DNA of 34,472 nt, from positions 1 to 34,472 of IMG/VR virus record IMGVR_UViG_3300005804_000122. One strand, written 5' to 3'. Under the pieces are notes generated by a model. That model was not told where the DNA came from and ran no database searches. It saw only the letters and a program-made list of their open reading frames with translations. This DNA comes from a virus. Lineage: Duplodnaviria > Caudoviricetes. The stretch's first letter is position 1, and each line of letters opens with the position of its first letter. Shown piece by piece: positions 13,677-28,419 of the stretch. The position numbers and the translations under genes were made by a program.

Positions 13677-15189
13677 GCGCCAGAACATAACCGAGCTCCA
13701 GTTCGACGATTACGTTGCCGCGCTGCGCAAGCAGATAGCCGAGAGCGTCTCGCCGTTCGAGGAGGATACCCCGGCGAAAAAACGGGAACGGATTGAGGCG
13801 TGTCTGGCCGATCCGCTGCTGTTCATGCGCACGTACATGCCGCACTACTTCCCTGTCGAGGAGGCGCCCTGCCACCACGAATGGTGCGAGATGGCCCGCA
13901 CACCGGGTTTCAACCTGATCGGCGCTCCCCGCGACCACGCCAAGACCACCGTGGTCACCTTCGGCCTGCGCGTCTACTTCGTCTGCAACAGGCTGAAGAA
14001 GTACATCATGCTCGGCTCCGACACCCACGACCAGGCCGCCCGCTTCACCGTCTCCATCAAAGTGGAATTGGAAGACAACCCCCGGCTGAAGCACGACTTC
14101 GGCGACGTGATCGCCAAGACCCGGCAATGGTCCGACGATTACTTCGTCACCAAGGGTGGCACCCTGGTAGAGGCCCTGGGCCGCGGGGACAAGTGGAGGG
14201 GCAAGAAGCACGGCCCGTACCGTCCGGACGACATCGGCCTGGACGACCTGGAGAACAACAGCACGGTCAAGAGCCCCACCGTCACCAAGGCGATCGTCGA
14301 GTTCATCACCGACGAGGTCCTCCCCTGCATGGAGGGTGACTGCGCCGCGACCATGGTGGGGAACGTGTTCCACGCCAAGAGCGCCATAGCCCAGATGATC
14401 GCCAAGGAAGACGAGGAGACCGGCGAGTTGCTCTACAACTCCAAGGTATACGACGCCGTGGTGGACGAGGAGAAGCGGATCACCCTCTGGCCCGCACGCT
14501 GGCCCTGGGACAGGCTCATGCGGCGCAAGCGGCTAGTGGGCAGCCGGGCGTTCAACAAGGAGTACCGCAACAAGACCACCGAGGAGGACTCGCCCTTCCC
14601 GGATGAGACCGTCACCTTCTTCGACCGCATCCTGGTGATGGAGCGCAAGCTGATTTTCGCCACCGCCGTCGATCCGTCCGCCACCGCCACCGAGAAGAGC
14701 GACTTCCGGGCGGTCGTTACCTGGGGCTTCGACCGGGAGGCGATGATCTTCCGCTGCATGCACGCCTGGATCAAGCGCCGCTCCATCGGCGAGATGTTCG
14801 CGGCCGCCTATGCCCAGAACGAGCAATACCCCGGCCGCTGCCCGATAGAGGAGAACATGCTGAAGGAGTTTCTCCACGAAGCGATCCAGAACTACGCGCG
14901 GCAGGTCGGCTCCTATCTGCCCTGGGCTCCCCTCCATCACGGGTCCCAGGCCAACAAGATCGCCCGCATCATCGGCACGTGCGAGTATCTCTGGGAGCAC
15001 AAGCTGATGCAGTTCGAAAAGCGCCATTCCGACCAGAAGACGCTCATCGAGCAGTTCGTCTACATCAACAACGCCACCGTTCACGACGACGGCCCGGACG
15101 CCAGTGAGATGGCGATCAGCTTCCTGCAGAAGGGCTCGGGGATCCGCGTGACCGATTGCATGCCCGCATTCACGGAGGCCGCCGCATGA
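13669..15189 (+). CDS. terL: Terminase large subunit
   Basis: APRDHAKTT Walker A, LDDLE Walker B, AVDPS and HDDGPDA nuclease motifs. Confidence 0.92.
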   Translation: MRKRQNITELQFDDYVAALRKQIAESVSPFEEDTPAKKRERIEACLADPLLFMRTYMPHYFPVEEAPCHHEWCEMARTPGFNLIGAPRDHAKTTVVTFGLRVYFVCNRLKKYIMLGSDTHDQAARFTVSIKVELEDNPRLKHDFGDVIAKTRQWSDDYFVTKGGTLVEALGRGDKWRGKKHGPYRPDDIGLDDLENNSTVKSPTVTKAIVEFITDEVLPCMEGDCAATMVGNVFHAKSAIAQMIAKEDEETGELLYNSKVYDAVVDEEKRITLWPARWPWDRLMRRKRLVGSRAFNKEYRNKTTEEDSPFPDETVTFFDRILVMERKLIFATAVDPSATATEKSDFRAVVTWGFDREAMIFRCMHAWIKRRSIGEMFAAAYAQNEQYPGRCPIEENMLKEFLHEAIQNYARQVGSYLPWAPLHHGSQANKIARIIGTCEYLWEHKLMQFEKRHSDQKTLIEQFVYINNATVHDDGPDASEMAISFLQKGSGIRVTDCMPAFTEAAA

Positions 15190-17507
15190 GCTGGTGGAAC
15201 CCCTTTGCAAAGAAGCGGCCGGACGTGCGGCCCGGCCGGGAATCGGTGCCCGAGGACAGCATCAACGGCGCCATCGGCAGGCTGGCAGGCTTCTACGACT
15301 TCAGCGCCGCGCCGTTCGACCTGAAGGTGTACGAGGTCCTGGAGCTGCTCGGCATGTTCAACCCGGACATATCCCAGGCCCTCTCCATCTGGGTCAACCT
15401 GGGGAACACCGGCCATGAGTTGGAGGTGGAGGCGCGGAATCCCGAGACGGTGCTCGACCGGCTGAACAGCCTGTCGGCTACGGTCTACCAGACCGGCGGC
15501 GGAGTGGACGGCCTGGTCAATCACTTCCTGCGCCAGATCCCCCTGATGGGCGCGCTTTCAGGCGAGTGGGTGGTGGCGGATCGGATACAGGACGGCCTGA
15601 CGGACTGCGTGGTGGTGCCGGTGAAGCGGATCCGCTGGCAGCGGGTGGACGGCAGATGGGCGCCGTTCCAGGTCACCAACGCCATCACCGGTGGAAACAT
15701 GGGGTACGTGGCGCTCAACCCGGTCACCTACAGCTGCATGCCGCTCATTACCAACGACGGGAGCCCCTACCCGATCCCGCCGTTCCTGCCCTCGCTGAAG
15801 AACATCGAGGTGCAGCTGGACGCGACGGACAACATTGCTTCCATCATCCGGAAGATGGGACTCCTGGGGTTCATCGACGTGAAGATGCAGATCCCGCAGC
15901 AGAAGCCGGGCGAGAGCGACCTGGCGTACCAGGCTCGCCTCAGCAAGCGCCTCCAGGACTACGCCAAGGCGTACAAGGGGAACCTGTCCAAAGGGGTCAG
16001 CGTCCATTACGACGACCAGGAGATCAAGCACAACGCCACCAACGCCGGCGCCGCCGCCGGCGCAAAGTCGGTCTGGGAGATCAACGAGGAGCAGATCTTC
16101 TCCGCCATCGACATCCCGCCCAGTATGTGCGGCCGCTCCTACTCCACCACCGAGACCTATGCCGAGGTGGATTTCGAGCGGTTGGGCACCAAGCTCGTCA
16201 ACGGCCGGCGGATGATCAAGCGCTTCCTGGAAAAGGGGTACACCCTGGACCTGCTGCTGCGTGGTCTCGACGTGCAGGTGACGGTGACGTTCAACGAGCA
16301 TTCGGCGTTCAAGCAGAAGGAAAAGGCCGAGGCCGAGGGCAAGCGGATCGAGAACGTCTTGAAGAAAAGGGACGGCGGCATCATCGATGACGACGAGGCG
16401 GCCCGGGAGCTGGGGTATGAGGCGGCGACCGGACGGTTGCCGGGGGATAATGCGCCGGATGGGTATTTCGGAAGGGCCGGATCGAGGAACGAGGTTCGAG
16501 GAACGAGGACAACCTTTTCCTTCAACCGAAAAACGGGACGCTATGAGTTTAAGCCGGAGGTCATCTTCCTTGACCAGCAGTCGGACAGCCGGGCGGATGA
16601 GAACTACATCGCGGCGCTGGAGAGCGTGCTGGAGGGCGCCGAGGAGAAGGCAGTCGAGGCGGCGATAAAGACGGCAGAAGCGGTTGCCGGCGAGGGTACA
16701 ACCGCCGAACGGTTTGCCGCGGCTGTGTACGAAGCTTTTGCCGACACCCTGCGGAGCGGGATCGCCAAGACCGCGGTTATGAAGATCTGCACCAGGTTCG
16801 TGAGCAACGAGTGGAAGCGGTGGCGGTACGAGGACAGGAATCATTTGAAATCCCCCCGGCGTTCCGCCACCCCCCTTTCGCAAAGTGGGGTAATCGCCCG
16901 GGCGGCGCTGGCAGGGGAGACCATCGACATTTCCGTGGTCGACAAGAACGCCTTAAGGTACCTGACCAGGATCGAGGACTTCTACTTCGGCCGGGGGAAC
17001 TACCTTGCGCGCAACGAGACCACCGGCAAAGAGTTCGTAGCCTGGCTCCAGGACGAGTACATAACGAAGGGCCTCTCCATCCGGGACGAGGCCACCTGGA
17101 CGGAGTTCAAGGGCAAGTTTGCGGGGCTGGTGCGGGAGACGAGCTACCGGAAGATCGAGCAGATCGTCTCCACCACCATGGCCAGGGTGCAGAACATGGG
17201 GCAGACCCTGTCCCTCTACGAGGCCGGTTTCAAGCGCTACCGGATCGTAGGACCCAGGACCGCGCCCATCTGCGACCACTGCAAGGCCATGCTCGGGCGG
17301 GTGTTCGAGGTGAAGGTGGCTGCCGAACGGCTGGCCAAAGTCCTGGACAAGGGGTTCGAGAATCCCGAGGACCTGCCGCCGTTCCTGTCCAACCGCTACT
17401 CGGCGGAGCGGGTGAAGGAGATGACGGACGAGGAGCTGCAGGCGGCCGGGTTCGAGACCCCGCCGTTTCATCCCAAGTGCCGGCACCGGAAGGCGGCGGA
17501 AGATTGA
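15186..17507 (+). CDS. Portal protein fused to MuF/SPP1-gp7-like head morphogenesis domain
   Basis: Follows terL; portal-like end GIIDDDEAARELGY; C-terminal CDHC..PPFHPKCR MuF motif; single open frame. Confidence 0.8.
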   Translation: MSWWNPFAKKRPDVRPGRESVPEDSINGAIGRLAGFYDFSAAPFDLKVYEVLELLGMFNPDISQALSIWVNLGNTGHELEVEARNPETVLDRLNSLSATVYQTGGGVDGLVNHFLRQIPLMGALSGEWVVADRIQDGLTDCVVVPVKRIRWQRVDGRWAPFQVTNAITGGNMGYVALNPVTYSCMPLITNDGSPYPIPPFLPSLKNIEVQLDATDNIASIIRKMGLLGFIDVKMQIPQQKPGESDLAYQARLSKRLQDYAKAYKGNLSKGVSVHYDDQEIKHNATNAGAAAGAKSVWEINEEQIFSAIDIPPSMCGRSYSTTETYAEVDFERLGTKLVNGRRMIKRFLEKGYTLDLLLRGLDVQVTVTFNEHSAFKQKEKAEAEGKRIENVLKKRDGGIIDDDEAARELGYEAATGRLPGDNAPDGYFGRAGSRNEVRGTRTTFSFNRKTGRYEFKPEVIFLDQQSDSRADENYIAALESVLEGAEEKAVEAAIKTAEAVAGEGTTAERFAAAVYEAFADTLRSGIAKTAVMKICTRFVSNEWKRWRYEDRNHLKSPRRSATPLSQSGVIARAALAGETIDISVVDKNALRYLTRIEDFYFGRGNYLARNETTGKEFVAWLQDEYITKGLSIRDEATWTEFKGKFAGLVRETSYRKIEQIVSTTMARVQNMGQTLSLYEAGFKRYRIVGPRTAPICDHCKAMLGRVFEVKVAAERLAKVLDKGFENPEDLPPFLSNRYSAERVKEMTDEELQAAGFETPPFHPKCRHRKAAED
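16481..16514. repeat. 4x NNCGAGG heptamer + ACAACC, inside portal CDS
   Basis: ATCGAGG AACGAGG TTCGAGG AACGAGG ACAACC. Confidence 0.8.
16848..16892. repeat. AAATCCCCCC..CCCCCTTT..AAGTGGGG palindromic repeat, copy 2 (inside CDS)
   Basis: ACCCC-C-CTTT-CGC-AAAG-T-GGGGT stem; same layout as 5919-5955. Confidence 0.65.
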
Positions 17508-17530
17508 ATGCTGAGTAACAGGAGGAGCGC

Positions 17531-17839
17531 ATGAAGACCATGGGCGGAATAGGCCAGGACAGCGTAGGGAGGCAGATCCAAGCATTCATATCGGATCCGG
17601 CCAAATGCTTGGGAACGGTGCCGGCTGGCACAGTCCTAAAGGTGGGGCCGGGTGGTTGGCACGATATATCGGGCTGGCTGGCGGTTGCATTTTACCCAGC
17701 TGACGATGGGCAGGTGGCCTATAACGGAGATGTCGCGAAGGTTGAGCCGGTCTTCTCTGGTGCCAGGAACGTAATTGTAATCCATGCGGACGTGACACAG
17801 ATAGTGGCTTCAGTTGATTGCGTTGTGGTGGGGATGTAA
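17531..17839 (+). CDS. Hypothetical beta-rich protein upstream of DGR target
   Basis: AGGAGG RBS; more A/T-ending codons than neighbours. Confidence 0.65.
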   Translation: MKTMGGIGQDSVGRQIQAFISDPAKCLGTVPAGTVLKVGPGGWHDISGWLAVAFYPADDGQVAYNGDVAKVEPVFSGARNVIVIHADVTQIVASVDCVVVGM

Positions 17840-17849
17840 GGGGGGAATT

Positions 17850-19370
17850 ATGGGTGGATTTGATTTTGGATCAGGTGCTGGCATGGCTACGAAGACGCGC
17901 ATTATCGCCGCACTCCCGGCCCACTACAGCCGTGACATCGCCTGGGGCATCAAGGGCCGCTCGGTAGCGGCGGATCGGCTGACCCTGTTGTCGCCTGCAG
18001 CCCTGGCGTGCAACATCGGCGGGCAGGGATTCGTAATGTCCGCTCAGGCGTCGCTGGCCCTATCCGCAGCCGCGACCTGGGACGCGGTCGCACCGACCGA
18101 TTACACCGTCGCGGCCGCCCGGGCCGGCAAGGATTTCTACGTCTACGCCTGCCAGCAGGGCGGCAGCGCCCCCGCGCTCGTGGTGTCCGCCAACTCCACC
18201 GTGCCCACCGGCTACACCTCAGACAACAGCCGCAAGGTTGCCGGGTTCCACTGCCTGTGTCTGGCGGTCGGAGCCATCGGCGGCCACGCCCTGACCGGCT
18301 TTGTTGCCGGAGACATACTGCCCGAGTCGGTGTGGGACCTGTCGTTCCGCCCTACCTGCTCTCCCGAGGGCATGGCCTACGACGCCAAGAGCGGGATTTG
18401 GGTGGACATCTACCTGACCTCCGGCACCGCCGCCAGCACCAGGAGCGCAAACGGAGCCACCATCAGCGACACCCGCGACTGGATGTCTTTCGTCGACGAC
18501 CTGGGCGCGGTCGGCAAGCGGCTGCTCACCGACCCGGAATTCCAGCTGGCAGCTGCAGGGTCCAACGAAGAGACCAACATCACCGGCAGCGCCGACCCGG
18601 TCACCACCGGCGGCCACGTCGACACCGCGGCCAGGCGGATGATATCGCACATCGGTCTCGAGGACTGCTGCGGCGCAATGTACCAGTGGCTGCAGGACCA
18701 GTCGTTCCGCTGCGATCCTGACGGCACCGTCCAGGCGGCCGGCCTGACCTTCACCGTCTACTATGTCGCGGCCCCGGGGGGCAATCCCATCTACCTGAAG
18801 CAGAGTGCAGACGGCCAGTTCTACCTGGCCTGCAACATGGCCACGGCCCTGGCGGACAAGCAGATCGGCCCGGCCAACTACAAGGTGCCAATCAAGCACG
18901 AGGCCGCAGCAGCCACCAACGCCATCGGCCAGGTCTATTACAACTCCGGAGGCGGCACCCCGGCGAAGATGCTGTGCACCATCGCCACCATCGCCAAGGA
19001 CGTGTTCCTGCCGAGCAACAACCCGACCTACTTCCTGCAGATAAAGCACGACGCCGCGGCCGCTGCCAACGGCCGGGCTCTCAACTATGACGACGGCGCG
19101 GACAACAGGCTGGAATGCAACACCGCATCGGCAGCCAACGACTCGGCCGACCTGGCCCTCAACAGCCAGTCTTTCAACTGGTATGACCTCCCCGGCGCAA
19201 AGGGCAGCCTTTACAGGCAAGGCACGAACGGGGATGTGAAGCTGCTGGCCGGCGGTTATTGGTCTTCTGGGACGCTTGCCGGTTCGCGCTGCCGTAATGC
19301 GTATTACTATCGCTGGACTCCGAATTCGATTATCGGTGCGCGCGGGTGCGCCCGGAGCCGGGAGACGTAA
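17850..19370 (+). CDS. DGR target protein, Mtd-like with CLec (FGE-sulfatase-type) C-terminus
   Basis: GLEDCCGAMYQW and LLAGG.W..AGSR..NS.IGARG motifs; VR at 3' end; ATG 17850 after GGGGG. Confidence 0.88.
   Translation: MGGFDFGSGAGMATKTRIIAALPAHYSRDIAWGIKGRSVAADRLTLLSPAALACNIGGQGFVMSAQASLALSAAATWDAVAPTDYTVAAARAGKDFYVYACQQGGSAPALVVSANSTVPTGYTSDNSRKVAGFHCLCLAVGAIGGHALTGFVAGDILPESVWDLSFRPTCSPEGMAYDAKSGIWVDIYLTSGTAASTRSANGATISDTRDWMSFVDDLGAVGKRLLTDPEFQLAAAGSNEETNITGSADPVTTGGHVDTAARRMISHIGLEDCCGAMYQWLQDQSFRCDPDGTVQAAGLTFTVYYVAAPGGNPIYLKQSADGQFYLACNMATALADKQIGPANYKVPIKHEAAAATNAIGQVYYNSGGGTPAKMLCTIATIAKDVFLPSNNPTYFLQIKHDAAAAANGRALNYDDGADNRLECNTASAANDSADLALNSQSFNWYDLPGAKGSLYRQGTNGDVKLLAGGYWSSGTLAGSRCRNAYYYRWTPNSIIGARGCARSRET
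19241..19356 (+). repeat. DGR variable repeat (VR)
   Basis: 116-bp ungapped match to 19430-19545 with 14 mismatches, all opposite TR adenines. Confidence 0.97.
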
Positions 19371-19390
19371 CTCGTTAAACGTTTTTCGAG
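19371..19390. promoter_or_regulatory. Putative DGR target-recognition hairpin after IMH
   Basis: CTCG-TT-AAACGTTT-TT-CGAG immediately after the target stop codon. Confidence 0.5.
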
Positions 19391-19429
19391 CGCGTCATGC
19401 GCACTGTAGAAATGGTTGTGGCGCCGATG

Positions 19430-19545
19430 GCTGCTGGCCGGCGGTAATTGGAATAATGGGACGAATGCCGGTTCGCGCTGCCGTAATGCGAATAACTATC
19501 GCTGGAATACGAATTCGAATATCGGTACGCGCGGGTGCACCCGGA
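19430..19545 (+). ncRNA. DGR template repeat (TR), part of DGR RNA
   Basis: Copy of VR with 10 AAY codons in the target frame; lies between target and RT. Confidence 0.95.
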
Positions 19546-19678
19546 TACAGGAACGAGTCAAACTCCCTGGCTGGGCGCCACAACCCTGTCCGGTAGGCGA
19601 GAGCCGAAAGGCAAAACACAAAACGGAGCACGGGCCGGGCCAGTAGGGAAACCGGACGTCAGGCCCGAACAAAAGACC

Positions 19679-20692
19679 ATGGCAAAGAGACACGGAAATC
19701 TGTTCGACAGGATCATAGCCGCCGACAACCTGATGCTGGCATATGAAAAGGCCCGCCGCGGCAAGTCGCGCATGCACAATGTCCAGCGCTTCGAGCGGAA
19801 CGTGGAGGGCAATCTGGAACGGATACGCCGTAGCCTGGAAAACAGGACCTTCACCACCTCGGGTTACCAGGTGAAAAAGATTCATGTGCCCAAGGAGCGT
19901 GACATCTACGTGCTGCCGTTCGCACCTGACCGCATCGTCCAGCATACAGTCATGAACATTCTGGAGCCCATCTGGGACGCCCTGTTCATCGACGATTCCT
20001 ATGCCTGCCGCGCCGGCAAGGGAATCCACGCCGGCAGCCTCCGGACCATGGAGTTCGTCCGCCGATACCGCTACGTGCTCAAGTGCGACATCGCCAAATT
20101 CTATCCCAGCATCGACCACGACGTGCTTTACGGGATCGTGCAGCGCAAAATCAAGTGCCCGGACACGCTCTGGCTGCTGCGCGACATCATCTACTCGGCG
20201 CCTGGCGGCAAGAACGCGCCCATCGGCAATTTCACCAGCCAGTGGTTCTGCAACCTGTACCTCAACGAACTGGACCAGCTGGTGAAACATCAGTTCAAGG
20301 TCAAGGGTTATCTCCGCTACTGCGACGATTTCTGTCTGTTCAGCGACGACAAGAAGCAGCTCCGGGAGCTGGCCGGGGAACTGAAGCAGTTCCTGGCGGA
20401 GTACCTGAAACTCACCTTCAGCAAGTGCGAGCTCTTTCCGGTCTCCCAGGGTGTGGACTTCCTGGGTTACCGCCACTTCCGCAATTACATCCTGGTGCGC
20501 AAGAGCACCTCCAAAAGGGTCAAGCGCAGGCTGGCCAACCTTCCGCGTCTGCTGGCCGCCGGTGAGATAACAGAGGAGCAGTACCGATCATCGATTGCCT
20601 CCACCCGGGGGTGGCTCAAATGGGCGAATACGCATAACCTATCCGTTGCGCTGGAGCTGGACCGCCTGACGGAGACGAGGGATGCAGCCTAA
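19679..20692 (+). CDS. DGR reverse transcriptase (337 aa)
   Basis: PKER.I..DRIVQH, LKCDIAKFYPSIDH, PIGNFTSQ (DGR-type), YLRYCDDF, GVDFLGY; no maturase/endonuclease domain. Confidence 0.96.
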   Translation: MAKRHGNLFDRIIAADNLMLAYEKARRGKSRMHNVQRFERNVEGNLERIRRSLENRTFTTSGYQVKKIHVPKERDIYVLPFAPDRIVQHTVMNILEPIWDALFIDDSYACRAGKGIHAGSLRTMEFVRRYRYVLKCDIAKFYPSIDHDVLYGIVQRKIKCPDTLWLLRDIIYSAPGGKNAPIGNFTSQWFCNLYLNELDQLVKHQFKVKGYLRYCDDFCLFSDDKKQLRELAGELKQFLAEYLKLTFSKCELFPVSQGVDFLGYRHFRNYILVRKSTSKRVKRRLANLPRLLAAGEITEEQYRSSIASTRGWLKWANTHNLSVALELDRLTETRDAA

Positions 20693-20981
20693 ACGGTTCA
20701 GCGATTTCGCCCGGGAGAGGATTCCCCTCGACGGGGCAAAGACCAGGCTCGATGACATCATCAACTGCGAGATACTCATCATCGGCCACTCCATCAAGCG
20801 GAGCCGCTACGACAAAAACAACAGCGGCAAGTTCCTGACACTCCAGTTCGAGCTCGACGGCGAACGCAGGGTACTGTTCACTGGCAGCGACGTCCTCATC
20901 GAGCAGCTTGAGCAATACGGCGACCAGATACCGTTCGCGGCAACCATCAAGAAAATCGACAGGTACTACTCCCTGTCGTGA
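20682..20981 (+). CDS. Hypothetical beta-rich protein overlapping RT stop; candidate DGR accessory
   Basis: Overlaps RT by 11 nt; alternating strands FLTLQFEL, RVLFTGS, PFAATIKK. Confidence 0.75.
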   Translation: MQPKRFSDFARERIPLDGAKTRLDDIINCEILIIGHSIKRSRYDKNNSGKFLTLQFELDGERRVLFTGSDVLIEQLEQYGDQIPFAATIKKIDRYYSLS

Positions 20982-20990
20982 GGAGACCAT

Positions 20991-21329
20991 ATGCGAGGCT
21001 TCCCGAAACACCTGAACACCCGCGCCGATTACGAATACGTCAAGGCCAATTTCCCGCCGGAGCAATGGCGGCCCTGGTTCCAGCGGCTGCTGGACGAGCG
21101 ATTCTCCTGGCTGCCGGTCGGCTCTCTGGCTGAGGGCGAACAAGGCGTCGAGGACGAGACCCACCGGGTGGTGGAGCACGTCGACGGGAGCGGGCAGGTG
21201 GTCGAGCGCATTCAGGAGCATTGGGTCGATGATCCGAATGCCACCATTTTTCGTATGGGGTTTACGGTAGAGGAGGTGGAAAACCTCTTGAAGGAAAATC
21301 CCCCCTGTGCCGTTTTCCAGGTCGGGTGA
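20991..21329 (+). CDS. Phage hypothetical protein (112 aa)
   Basis: GAGGAG RBS; MRGFPKHLNTRADYEY..IFRMGFTVEEV. Confidence 0.75.
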   Translation: MRGFPKHLNTRADYEYVKANFPPEQWRPWFQRLLDERFSWLPVGSLAEGEQGVEDETHRVVEHVDGSGQVVERIQEHWVDDPNATIFRMGFTVEEVENLLKENPPCAVFQVG

Positions 21330-21421
21330 ATAGTCAGGGGGCCATTTTAGAGCCCGACCCGCCACGAGGCCGGGTAAACCGTTTGCAAACCACAAATATT
21401 GCGTTCAGGAGGCGATCCGCG

Positions 21422-22534
21422 ATGGGCGAAAAACAACAAAATCAGAAAAAGAGCTTCGAGGTCATCCGGGAGGGGTTTGCCCGGGCGAGATTTGTAGGCG
21501 CCCTGGACGGCGCCCCGATGCCCGGGAGCACCGAGCCTTTCAGGTTCGCCCCGGTGGAGGGGCAGGAGAACGGCGGCCTCAATCCCGACGAATTCACCGC
21601 CCGCTGGTTCCGCATCCTGTCGCAGGCGGTGACCCCCTACCGCTTCTTCGACTTCACCCGGCCGGGCGTTCTCAAGGCCGGGGTGCCGCTGTTCGAGGGG
21701 ATCACCCTGTACGCCAACCACTATGCCGACGTGGAGCGGTGGAAGGGATTCGTCCAGGAGCCGACCTGGGATGAGAAGAACGACCCGCCCGGCATCAACG
21801 CGCTGCTGGTGGTGGACCGGACGGTAGCCCTCAACCTGGCCCGTGGCGTGGAGATCAAGGCGCTCCGTTCCTGCAGTGTCACCATCTGGTTCGAGTTCGA
21901 GCGGAGCCACCCGGACCTGAAGTACTTTTACGACCGGCTCGGCGAAGAGGTGGACGGGGAGATCGTGCGCTTCATCGTTACCAAACTTACCCGTGCGGCG
22001 GAGGTATCCATCGTCTGGGAGGGGGAAGACCCGTACGCCAAGTCGTTTGAAGCCAGGCCCGAGGCGCTGGGCGCGGGGCACGAGGAAAACCATAACCAAG
22101 GGGAGGAAACAGACATGAAACTGGCAGCCGCAACAATAGCGCTCCTGGGGATACCCACAGGCACCGAACTGACCCAGGAGATGCTGGACACGAAGATCGC
22201 CGAGACTGTAACCGGTCTCAAGAACCAGGTCGAGGGGCTGAAAGCAGATGCCGCCCTGGGCGCGCAGCTCTTGACCGAGACCCGGGAGCGGGCCGTCACC
22301 CTGTACAAGACCGCCAAGGGGGAGAAATTCCAGCAGACGTTCGTGGACGGGGTGATCCAGAAAGCGGACCTGGCGACGGCCCGGGCGCTGGTCTCGGAGT
22401 ACGAGACCGAGGTGGAGAAGAGCGTGCCGCTGGCCTGTCCCAAGTGCGGGGAGAAGCTGTCGCGCCGCTCCTCCCTGGAGACCGAAGGGCAGAACGCAAA
22501 TTCCAGCAAGCGGGCCGAAGACTACAAACTTTAA
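21422..22534 (+). CDS. Prohead protease/scaffold protein
   Basis: AGGAGG RBS; YANH, SCSV, EVSIVW.G protease-like motifs; helical C-terminus; precedes capsid genes. Confidence 0.75.
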   Translation: MGEKQQNQKKSFEVIREGFARARFVGALDGAPMPGSTEPFRFAPVEGQENGGLNPDEFTARWFRILSQAVTPYRFFDFTRPGVLKAGVPLFEGITLYANHYADVERWKGFVQEPTWDEKNDPPGINALLVVDRTVALNLARGVEIKALRSCSVTIWFEFERSHPDLKYFYDRLGEEVDGEIVRFIVTKLTRAAEVSIVWEGEDPYAKSFEARPEALGAGHEENHNQGEETDMKLAAATIALLGIPTGTELTQEMLDTKIAETVTGLKNQVEGLKADAALGAQLLTETRERAVTLYKTAKGEKFQQTFVDGVIQKADLATARALVSEYETEVEKSVPLACPKCGEKLSRRSSLETEGQNANSSKRAEDYKL

Positions 22535-22541
22535 AATCAGG

Positions 22542-22595
22542 ATCGAGGTTCGAGGATCGATGTTCGAGGGAAATCTTTCAAGCTCGGGTTCGAAC
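22542..22595. repeat. NNCGAGG heptamer array, intergenic
   Basis: ATCGAGG TTCGAGG ATCGATG TTCGAGG then degenerate complement. Confidence 0.75.
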
Positions 22596-23341: not shown

Positions 23342-23350
23342 AGGCGGGGG

Positions 23351-23377
23351 CGCGAGGTTCGAGGCACGAGGACAACC
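23351..23377. repeat. 3x NNCGAGG heptamer + ACAACC, intergenic
   Basis: CGCGAGG TTCGAGG CACGAGG ACAACC. Confidence 0.75.
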
Positions 23378-23399
23378 ATTTCATAGAAGGAGTTCGAAC

Positions 23400-28342: not shown

Positions 28343-28349
28343 CGGCAGG

Positions 28350-28419
28350 ATCGAGGAACGAGGACAACCTGAAGACCGTTTTTGCTTTCCTCGTGCCTCG
28401 AACCTCGATCCTCGAACCT
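28350..28419. repeat. NNCGAGG / CCTCGNN heptamer inverted array
   Basis: ATCGAGG AACGAGG ACAACC .. CCTCGTG CCTCGAA CCTCGAT CCTCGAA. Confidence 0.85.

What the first reader, a model, noticed from the sequence alone, without database searches (positions are those of the whole stretch)
19371..21329. DGR without avd; an RT-coupled 99-aa beta-rich ORF is a candidate alternative accessory factor
Seen: only 59 bp separate the target stop from TR, and 133 bp separate TR from RT, so avd cannot fit at its usual position. I see no basic four-helix-bundle ORF elsewhere in the window. ORF 20682-20981 overlaps the RT stop, suggesting translational coupling, and looks beta-stranded (OB-fold-like) rather than helical. 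Known: BPP-1 bRT needs Avd for cDNA synthesis, though avd-less DGR classes exist. Inference: this protein may be a nucleic-acid-binding replacement for Avd in a target-TR-RT-X-Y architecture. It is the best candidate here for an undescribed mechanism.
Basis: partly seen in the sequence, partly recalled or inferred. Interest (0 to 1): 0.85.

Follow-up and report, generated by a model that had tools for sequence, protein, structure and literature searches.

The report
OB-fold accessory of Avd-less DGRs
The small gene behind this phage's mutagenic reverse transcriptase belongs to a large unnamed family that sits beside, or is fused to, such enzymes in hypermutation cassettes lacking the usual helper Avd; it is predicted to fold like a single-strand-binding protein and is likely an enzyme-tethered helper, though some apparently active relatives do without it.

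Summary
Observation confirmed. A Mu-like provirus carries target-TR-RT-X-Y; no avd was found. X (20682-20981) is a real gene with a predicted OB fold (SSB-like, modest Z 5-7). It is a dedicated DGR gene: 133 of 138 X loci have a DGR RT beside them, in four gene orders; 18 full-length RT-X fusions exist; no locus held both X and avd (RT-selected relatives 71 of 80 X, 0 avd; BPP-1-like 73 of 80 avd, 0 X). Remote members resemble PAG1 of Wu 2018. The template RNA keeps the primer and stop duplexes of BPP-1 but is about 40 nt shorter where the Avd-binding stem-loop lies. Against a one-for-one replacement: 34 of 216 assessable RT clusters have neither gene detected, and several show recent adenine-specific diversification. 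Best reading: this RT clade dropped Avd and its RNA handle; X is likely an RT-tethered single-strand binder that helps but is not always needed. Y follows the target, not the RT. Binding and function are untested; the complex prediction could not be run. The scan found this family before on other DNA (eight earlier notes). Eight literature searches found no functional description. New variant of a known kind; interest 0.72.

The parts
17850..19370 (+). DGR target gene, Mtd-like tail/receptor-binding protein with C-terminal VR (start codon uncertain: 17814, 17850 or 17883)
   Evidence: Pfam mtd_2nd E 5e-18; phrog_11262 tail protein E 1e-55
19241..19363 (+). Variable repeat (VR), ending in the IMH-like segment
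19414..19425 (+). Upstream arm of the predicted cPRT-Stop-like RNA duplex (in BPP-1 this arm lies inside avd)
   Evidence: 12 of 12 complementary to 19574-19585; cognate arms pair at >=9 of 12 in 40 of 41 relatives against 10% of non-cognate pairs
19430..19552 (+). Template repeat (TR), 30 adenines; G19544 is the predicted first template base, 19545-19552 IMH*-like
   Evidence: 16 of 17 mismatches at TR-A; the one non-A mismatch (19546) lies 3' of G19544; G19544, A19545, C19548 invariant in 28 aligned loci
19553..19573 (+). Short hairpin plus predicted primer strand (U19572 predicted priming base); stands where BPP-1 has the Avd-binding stem-loop
   Evidence: template-G to primer distance 28 nt here, median 31 in 41 loci, 73 in BPP-1; 19569-19573 invariant; role inferred from Handa et al. 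sections 6-8
19574..19585 (+). Downstream arm of the predicted cPRT-Stop-like duplex
19586..19667 (+). Rest of the spacer RNA: variable stem-loop followed by an A run, an unpaired C/A-rich stretch, and a 3' stem with a conserved internal loop (likely A-minor, Thumb-Ring and RT-binding equivalents)
   Evidence: alignment A5, centroid fold (whole-region fold energy not better than shuffles, z -0.03); assignment is inference
19679..20692 (+). DGR reverse transcriptase, 337 aa, YCDD at 20318-20329, no C-terminal extension
   Evidence: falls in the non-Avd RT clade
20682..20981 (+). X: 99-aa predicted OB-fold DGR accessory protein (PAG1-related family), overlaps RT stop by 11 nt
20991..21329 (+). 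Y: 112-aa protein, helices plus a long beta-hairpin; travels with the Mtd-like target family, likely a target/tail partner rather than an RT factor

Best explanation
X belongs to a gene family that stays beside, or is fused to, the reverse transcriptase of Avd-less DGRs; it is predicted to be an OB-fold protein that likely works tethered to the RT and would bind single-stranded template RNA or cDNA, helping but not always being required. Steps: (1, shown) target, VR, TR and an intact RT form an adenine-specific DGR with no avd found. (2, shown by covariation; function inferred from the BPP-1 structure) the TR RNA keeps the stop duplex and a template:primer hairpin, so cDNA synthesis would be cis-primed near U19572 on G19544 and end at the 19414-19425/19574-19585 duplex. 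(3, shown as a length deficit; meaning inferred) the segment that holds the Avd-binding stem-loop in BPP-1 is about 40 nt shorter, so the clade likely gave up the Avd pentamer together with its RNA handle. (4, inferred) X, made by translational coupling or as an RT domain on a 2-33-residue linker, would sit near the thumb end of the RT and hold unpaired RNA or the cDNA, raising processivity or protecting and handing the cDNA to the VR. (5, shown for relatives) some lineages lost X and still appear to diversify, so X is likely a booster or is replaceable by a host or phage single-strand binder. About 0.9 that X is a dedicated DGR component, about 0.6 for the tethered single-strand-binder mechanism.
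For: Linkage: 133 of 138 X loci have a DGR-type RT within ~1.5 kb at 36-90% identity to the window RT; 95 of 139 fetched loci show a TR/VR pair, contig-end cases included. Genome samples not chosen for RT: 16 of 16 matches in 401 Bacteroidales genomes (one match is the seed locus itself) are beside (12) or fused to (4) an RT, down to E 6e-6. X keeps to the RT through rearrangement: of 136 RT clusters, RT-X 74, RT-gene-X 43, TR-X-RT 7, target-X-TR-RT 6, X-RT unplaced 6. Fusions: 18 of 21 longer X-domain proteins carry PF00078; 17 full-length C-terminal and 1 N-terminal fusion with intact YxDD, scattered over the RT tree. Exclusion with avd: window-RT-selected loci 71 of 80 X, 0 avd; BPP-1-RT-selected 73 of 80 avd, 0 X; no locus with both; 0 of 50 X-bearing viral records hit NF033474 (controls 3 of 3); 0 of 135 RT-neighbour ORFs hit PF22296 (controls 3 of 3); 26 of 40 host genomes with X have no PF22296 match anywhere. 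Fold: pLDDT 90.8; top structural rows are OB folds, mostly SSB/PriB, Z 5-7, rmsd 2.2-2.7 over 63-68 residues; the two best BFVD hits are RT proteins (E 7e-7, 4e-6); an Atlas cluster at 0.94 carries Phi29 SSB on 44% of members (a lead). RNA.
Against: Neither-gene DGRs: 34 of 216 assessable RT clusters (85% identity) have no X and no avd nearby, 30 of them with TR/VR; 3 of the 34 are crAss RTs with a possible fused remnant. Whole-record search found no X in 44 of 46 such records, including 17 of 18 that are >=90% complete (controls 4 of 4). Within X-less groups with 0-3 TR differences, VRs differ at 15-26 positions, nearly all at TR-A (L182-184, L178/180, L406/414, L408/410, L426/427, L436/438). 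OB-fold Z scores are below the tool's threshold of 8 for a specific match, the best row is a RuvBL2 domain II (Z 7.2), and no sequence link to any SSB family or PDB chain was found. X is not strongly basic (pI 7.8; family median 8.5). A few X homologs lack an RT: L036, L516, P0216, P0270. The avd/X exclusion follows one split in the RT tree, so it is one evolutionary event, not many (midpoint root, Avd side thinly sampled).
Confidence: 0.6

Rival explanations
1. X is a strict functional replacement of Avd: an obligatory RT subunit needed for RNP assembly and cDNA synthesis, and the apparently X-less elements carry a diverged or trans-acting copy that was missed.
For: Complete exclusion with avd; repeated RT fusion; X sits in the avd slot in 6 clusters; the family is divergent enough that crAss RT tails score only E 0.005, so remote copies can be missed.
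Against: L181-184 have RTs about 60% identical to the window's, with Y directly behind the RT stop and no X, yet show diversified VRs; 17 of 18 near-complete X-less records gave no match; the short RNA occurs with or without X.
Confidence: 0.25
2. X acts after reverse transcription as a private SSB or annealing aid for cDNA integration at the VR and need not touch the RT; linkage and fusion only secure co-expression.
For: SSB/PriB-like fold; in E. coli, BPP-1 retrohoming favours lagging-strand ssDNA targets and is inhibited by ExoI (PMC12875486 passages); X can be lost; fusions occur at either RT end.
Against: Short linkers in many fusions (2-8 residues in 9 of 17) fit a fixed place on the RT; X-less phages do not carry more canonical SSB genes (0 of 19 against 4 of 31 X-bearing); Avd-type DGRs manage without X.
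Confidence: 0.1
3. X is a phage structural or passenger gene that hitch-hikes with the tail-fibre/DGR module, like Y.
For: Most loci are viral; small tail-associated genes (Y, the 102-aa L019-type gene) also flank these RTs; some RTs lack X.
Against: X goes with the window's target family (37 clusters) and with other targets (69), whereas Y occurs only with the window's target family; X fuses to RT, follows it through rearrangements, and survives in archaeal, alphaproteobacterial and Bacteroidales records.
Confidence: 0.05

Closest known systems
PAG1 (potential accessory gene 1) of Wu et al. 2018, PMC5758913
   Same: Three lineage-3 Bacteroidales DGRs; for the two table rows seen, PAG1 lies between target and TR and no avd is listed. 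By eye the supplement sequences match L469, L197 and L205, which the X profile reaches (E 7e-5 and 7e-4 for L205 and L197; 8e-20 for L197 with alignment A3, which contains it); shared FT[GN]S and FP motifs.
   Different: PAG1 had 3 members, no fold or function, and was called tenuous. X itself is only about 20-25% identical to the PAG1-like proteins and lies behind the RT. The PAG1-to-L469 comparison was not computed.
Avd (bAvd, Pfam PF22296, NCBIfam NF033474) of Bordetella phage BPP-1
   Same: Small accessory gene bound to a DGR RT locus; presumed nucleic-acid and RT partner; occasionally the same gene slot.
   Different: Avd is a basic helical homopentamer, essential, and grips a stem-loop at Sp3-33. 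X is a predicted beta-barrel, near neutral, has no Avd match, fuses to RT, can be lost, and its RNA lacks room for that stem-loop.
Wu lineage 3 / architecture A1 DGRs (TG-TR-RT, no accessory gene), with crAssphage LMMB and ANMV-1
   Same: Same gene order, no avd. ANMV-1 (A1, no lineage given in Wu's table) has an X homolog right after its RT (42% identity). LMMB (lineage 3 by PMC7290462) falls in the same non-Avd RT clade.
   Different: These were described as having no accessory gene. The window's VR is closer to the BPP-1/CLec1 type by eye, so membership of lineage 3 proper is not shown. The legend of Paul 2015 Fig. 1b names an Avd ORF in ANMV-1; the figure was not seen, and neither ORF flanking the RT hits PF22296.
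CH1, MSL and HRDC accessory genes
   Same: Alternative DGR accessory classes; CH1 also occurs only without avd.
   Different: CH1 is 160-169 aa and acidic (pI 4.7); MSL occurs with avd; HRDC is a helical Pfam domain. X is ~99 aa, pI 7.8, with no Pfam match.
SSB / PriB / phage single-strand-binding OB-fold proteins
   Same: Predicted fold over residues 24-99 (Z 5-6.5).
   Different: 4-16% identity, no PF00436 or PDB sequence match; conserved N-terminal arm; not in replication modules.

Membership tests
Diversity-generating retroelement | TR/VR pair differing at TR adenines | tested here: met
   16 of 17 mismatches at TR-A
Diversity-generating retroelement | Intact DGR-type RT next to TR | tested here: met
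   337 aa, YCDD, RVT_1; tblastn hits are DGR RTs including BPP-1 Brt
Diversity-generating retroelement | VR at the 3' end of a target gene | tested here: met
   VR ends 7 nt before the end of the target's stop codon; Mtd-like target
Diversity-generating retroelement | Mutagenic retrohoming activity | not testable with these tools
   Indirect only: a relative with 1 TR difference has 19 VR differences, 18 at TR-A
Avd (PF22296 / NF033474), for X | Profile match | tested here: not met
Avd (PF22296 / NF033474), for X | Four-helix-bundle fold, strongly basic | tested here: not met
   beta-barrel model; pI 7.8 against 9.6 for BPP-1 Avd
Avd-like function, for X | Binds RT and is required for cDNA synthesis | not testable with these tools
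   No complex model was obtained; natural fusions are indirect support, X-less diversified elements speak against a strict requirement
PAG1 (Wu 2018) | Sequence homology to the three PAG1 proteins | tested here: inconclusive
   Transitive: profile reaches L197, L205, L469, which match PAG1 by eye; direct comparison not computed
PAG1 (Wu 2018) | Found in avd-less DGRs beside TR/RT | tested here: met
CH1 (Wu 2018) | 160-169 aa, pI about 4.7 | tested here: not met
   99 aa, pI 7.8
OB fold | Five-stranded barrel with a capping helix, superposable on OB domains | tested here: met
   Predicted model only; nearly all top VIA-align rows are OB domains, Z up to 7.2
SSB family (PF00436) | Sequence match and ssDNA binding | tested here: inconclusive
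   No sequence match; fold similarity only; binding untested
Wu lineage 3 | RT groups with lineage-3 RTs; avd absent; CLec3 VR | tested here: inconclusive
   Same non-Avd clade as LMMB and PAG1-like loci, FastTree support 0.98; VR class not formally tested

The most novel reading that the evidence does not exclude
A large clade of phage, bacterial and archaeal DGRs, including gut Bacteroides phages, crAss-like phages and ANMV-1, runs a second DGR ribonucleoprotein design: no Avd pentamer, a compact RNA without the Avd handle, and an OB-fold subunit or fused RT domain in its place. The natural RT-OB fusions would then be single-protein adenine-mutagenesis machines, and the unexplained C-terminal extensions of many DGR RTs would be this domain.
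Probability: 0.45. Interest if true: 0.88.

Novelty: new variant of a known kind. Interest (0 to 1): 0.72.

Why it matters
About a quarter of DGRs lack avd (275 of 372 have it, PMC5758913), and how they work has been left open; all the mechanistic work I read is on the Avd-type BPP-1 element. This locus gives concrete, testable parts: a candidate accessory protein, a predicted priming site and stop duplex, and a missing RNA handle. It also gives natural controls: split, fused and X-less relatives. If right, it adds a fifth accessory class with a fold, corrects the 'no accessory gene' label of many A1 elements, and points to single-chain RT-OB enzymes with a short RNA as simpler tools for targeted mutagenesis.

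Tried and rejected
Complex prediction of RT with X: the queue was full, no job ran, no verdict. Pfam, PHROG and PDB sequence searches named no family for X (only weak phrog_19665, unknown function, E 0.005). Foldseek on PDB gave nothing at E<=0.001. Idea that X-less phages compensate with their own canonical SSB: not supported, PF00436 in 0 of 19 X-less and 4 of 31 X-bearing records (other phage SSB families not tested). Avd in trans: 14 of 40 host genomes have some PF22296 match, 8 over the cut-off; of the 12 match loci fetched, 6 sit beside their own RT and none has X nearby; 26 genomes have none, but most are incomplete MAGs. crAss RT tails as fused X: profile alignment collinear over 68 columns but weak (E 0.005, probability 7%; single tails 0.001-0.23), Foldseek hit to the cr7_1 RT at E 0.045, Atlas blank: a lead only. 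X = CH1, MSL, HRDC or Avd: rejected on size, charge, fold, profiles. Y: no clear fold match (best Z 4.4; one uncharacterised myovirus protein, E 3e-5). No GC-rich hairpin of clear strength after VR (fold -7.3 kcal/mol over 59 nt). Whole TR-region fold energy equals shuffles. The anchored duplex script failed on the X-less group, so that group rests. No RNA holder listed; contigs gave no VR variants. A metagenome scan with a distant-homolog alignment could not be run, so linkage of the most distant of the 952 clusters is sampled only through. In 401 Desulfobacterota genomes only the seed and one RT-less weak hit appeared. Sequence look-up in earlier findings was blank.

Full report
Setting. The window is a whole virus record classed as a provirus, 34,472 nt, 71% complete. 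Mu-type genes (AAA ATPase, DUF3164, GemA, DUF1804, terminase, portal, protease, capsid, sheath, tape measure) make it a Mu-like phage. Named close relatives of X come from Geobacter and other deltaproteobacteria, so that host group is likely (inference). The DGR cassette lies between the portal/head-morphogenesis gene and the head protease.

Observation. Every stated feature is present: target stop 19370, VR 19241-19363, TR 19430-19552, RT 19679-20692, X 20682-20981 overlapping the RT stop by 11 nt, Y 20991-21329. Sixteen of 17 TR/VR mismatches are at TR adenines. No avd was found in the record, with the same search finding avd in 3 of 3 control records.

X is a real, conserved gene. 253 homologs by word search and 952 clusters at 50% identity by profile; no Pfam family. 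AlphaFold2 gives pLDDT 90.8 with five main strands and a helix between strands 3 and 4. VIA-align rows are nearly all OB domains: RuvBL2 domain II Z 7.2, then bacterial, plastid and mitochondrial SSBs and PriB at Z 5-6.5. These scores show the fold class, not a function. Against predicted viral structures the two best hits are RT proteins.

X belongs to the RT. Of 138 loci with an X match, 133 have a DGR-type RT next to it (a 139th weak candidate had no X on re-test and was dropped). Of the other five, two are cut by contig ends, two keep other DGR parts (TR/VR in L114; target and Y in L137) and one (L036) stands alone. In 401 Bacteroidales genomes all 16 matches were beside or fused to an RT; in 401 Desulfobacterota genomes the only new match had no RT. 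X keeps its place by the RT in four gene orders. Eighteen of 21 longer X-domain proteins carry the RT family; with those there are 17 full-length C-terminal fusions and one N-terminal one, with intact catalytic motifs and linkers of 2-33 residues. Fourteen fusions put on the RT tree fall in several separate places, which suggests repeated fusion or fission. A few short RT-X joins (P0026, P0160, P0198, P0288, L082) look like deletions and were not counted.

X and avd exclude each other. Loci chosen by the window's RT: 71 of 80 X, 0 avd. Loci chosen by BPP-1 RT: 73 of 80 avd, 0 X. Bacteroides phage Versailles type: 75 of 80 X. No locus in any set had both (local Avd profile seeded with 7 proteins, which also recognised the 12 Pfam-found loci). 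NF033474 found nothing in 50 X-bearing viral records (50 of the 80 fetched). PF22296 found nothing in 135 neighbour ORFs (131 of 198 size-selected cluster representatives plus 4 others). The RT tree splits 14 Avd RTs from a clade (support 0.98) with 67 X, 14 fused, 15 neither and 1 truncated. This is one split, so the exclusion is a lineage trait and not many independent swaps.

The RNA. Handa et al. (bioRxiv 2023.10.23.563531; outline and sections 6, 7, 8, 10, 11 read; figures and supplements not seen) describe in BPP-1 an Avd-binding stem-loop (Sp3-33), a template:primer duplex (TR117-129 with Sp47-56) and a stop duplex (avd369-379 with Sp59-70), and surveyed only Avd-bearing DGRs. Here 19414-19425 is the exact complement of 19574-19585. 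In the 41 of 154 non-Avd RT clusters that share the local motif, the cognate arms pair at 9 or more of 12 positions in 40, against 10% of non-cognate combinations. Mismatches 5' of the predicted first template G are 679 of 705 at A; 3' of it only 27 of 46, as expected of IMH*. The distance from that G to the predicted primer base is 28 nt here, median 31 (range 25-55), against 73 in BPP-1. Two looser measures agree: duplex start after TR end, median 27 nt in X clusters (108 of 115 scored), 68 in Avd clusters (35 of 44), 34 in neither-gene clusters (22 of 30); from a common TR anchor 49.5 (28 of 48) against 91 (9 of 43). The deficit of about 40 nt matches the Avd-binding element. The samples are related by descent, so the P value (1e-5) overstates independence.

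Results against a simple replacement. Of 227 RT clusters, 136 have X, 46 avd, 34 neither and 11 are too truncated. Whole-record searches found no X in 44 of 46 neither-type records; one hit was an X cut by a contig end, one a weak match in an 818-aa frame; controls 4 of 4. In six X-less groups, members with 0-3 TR differences have VRs that differ at 15-26 positions, almost all at TR-A. L182-184 are about 60% identical to the window's RT, with Y directly after the RT; their records are only about 16% complete, but L178 (92%), L436 (90%) and L438 (98%) are nearly whole. The RT clade therefore appears able to retrohome with neither gene in cis. A very diverged or host-supplied substitute is not excluded: crAss RTs carry a 90-97-residue tail that aligns to X only weakly.

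Y. Found with 32 of 65 clusters whose target resembles the window's and 0 of 110 others; it sits upstream of the target in some loci, one of them an Avd DGR (L299). Fold unmatched. It is likely a partner of the target protein.

Mechanism. Shown: DGR anatomy, linkage, fusion, exclusion, covarying duplex, shorter RNA, X-less diversified relatives. Inferred: cis-priming as in BPP-1; loss of the Avd handle; X as an RT-tethered binder of unpaired RNA or cDNA. Untested: RT-X contact, nucleic-acid binding, any effect on retrohoming.

What is known. Wu et al. 2018 (PMC5758913; passages; supplement passages) list avd, HRDC, MSL and CH1, note that lineage 3 lacks avd, that about 20% of RTs have unexplained C-terminal extensions, and mention PAG1-4 as tenuous. 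PAG1 matches remote X homologs by eye. Morozova et al. (PMC7290462; passages) place avd-less crAssphage LMMB in lineage 3. Paul et al. 2015 (PMC4372165; passages) name an Avd ORF in a figure legend for ANMV-1, which Wu lists without one; ANMV-1 carries an X homolog. The 2021 review (PMC8632793; passages) repeats four classes. The Bacteroides preprint (10.1101/2024.11.15.621889; passages) studies Avd-type elements. PMC12875486 (passages) gives the ExoI and lagging-strand results. Eight searches listed no paper that describes an OB-fold DGR accessory; hits were seen as listings only. The library lacks most subscription papers and bioRxiv supplements are closed, so absence from print is not proven. 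Eight earlier notes of this scan report the same family on other DNA; I read them after the linkage, fusion, fold and PAG1 results were in hand, and they are not independent evidence. The short lines shown did not mention the RNA deficit or the diversified X-less relatives.

Verdict. A real, under-described DGR accessory family; new variant of a known kind. It works like an RT partner of Avd-less DGRs (0.9) but is not an Avd and probably not an obligatory stand-in (0.25). Interest 0.72.

Noticed in passing
window 15156-22534: The DGR with its Mtd-like target lies inside the head module, between a fused portal/head-morphogenesis gene (783 aa) and the head protease, not among the tail genes; relatives place the cassette beside other genes.
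   Followed up: partly
window 17531-17839: 102-aa ORF just upstream of the target, lower GC (0.56), no Pfam or PHROG match, not found in any of the 139 related loci.
   Followed up: partly
window 16479-16517, 22540-22578, 23342-23380, 28347-28419: A short repeat family (TCGAGG units) recurs in several intergenic or linker positions, once in inverted orientation (D2, D13, I3, I12); role unknown.
   Followed up: no
L019:5686-5991 and 66 other loci: A second conserved ~100-aa gene directly after the RT, between RT and X, no Pfam match; also present in X-less L196 and L215. An 88-aa gene holds the same place in 44 X-less Firmicutes-type loci (L434:4056-4319).
   Followed up: partly
L178:3932-5398, L180: RT reads in frame into Y with X missing; VRs of the two loci differ at 17 TR adenines.
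   Followed up: partly
L114, L137, L082: Decayed cassettes: RT deleted with TR/VR and X kept (L114), RT and half of X missing (L137), RT N-terminus joined to X (L082).
   Followed up: partly
L189:2927-3403, L200-L204, L216: A 159-aa ORF just upstream of the RT ends in a VR-like lectin motif: a very small or second target, no Pfam match.
   Followed up: no
P0270, P0216: X domain at the end of a MutL N-terminal protein (P0270; one contig, may be an assembly join) and a 233-aa protein with two X-like domains and no RT (P0216).
   Followed up: no
L115-L136 (Enterousia-type Alphaproteobacteria): Small-genome bacteria carry TR-X-RT cassettes with X between TR and RT, some on long contigs beside housekeeping genes.
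   Followed up: partly
L140:4983-5279 (ANMV-1): X homolog with pI 9.1 and 11.4 kDa fits the size and pI rule by which Avd-like ORFs were picked in Paul 2015; it may be the ORF drawn as Avd there (figure not seen).
   Followed up: partly
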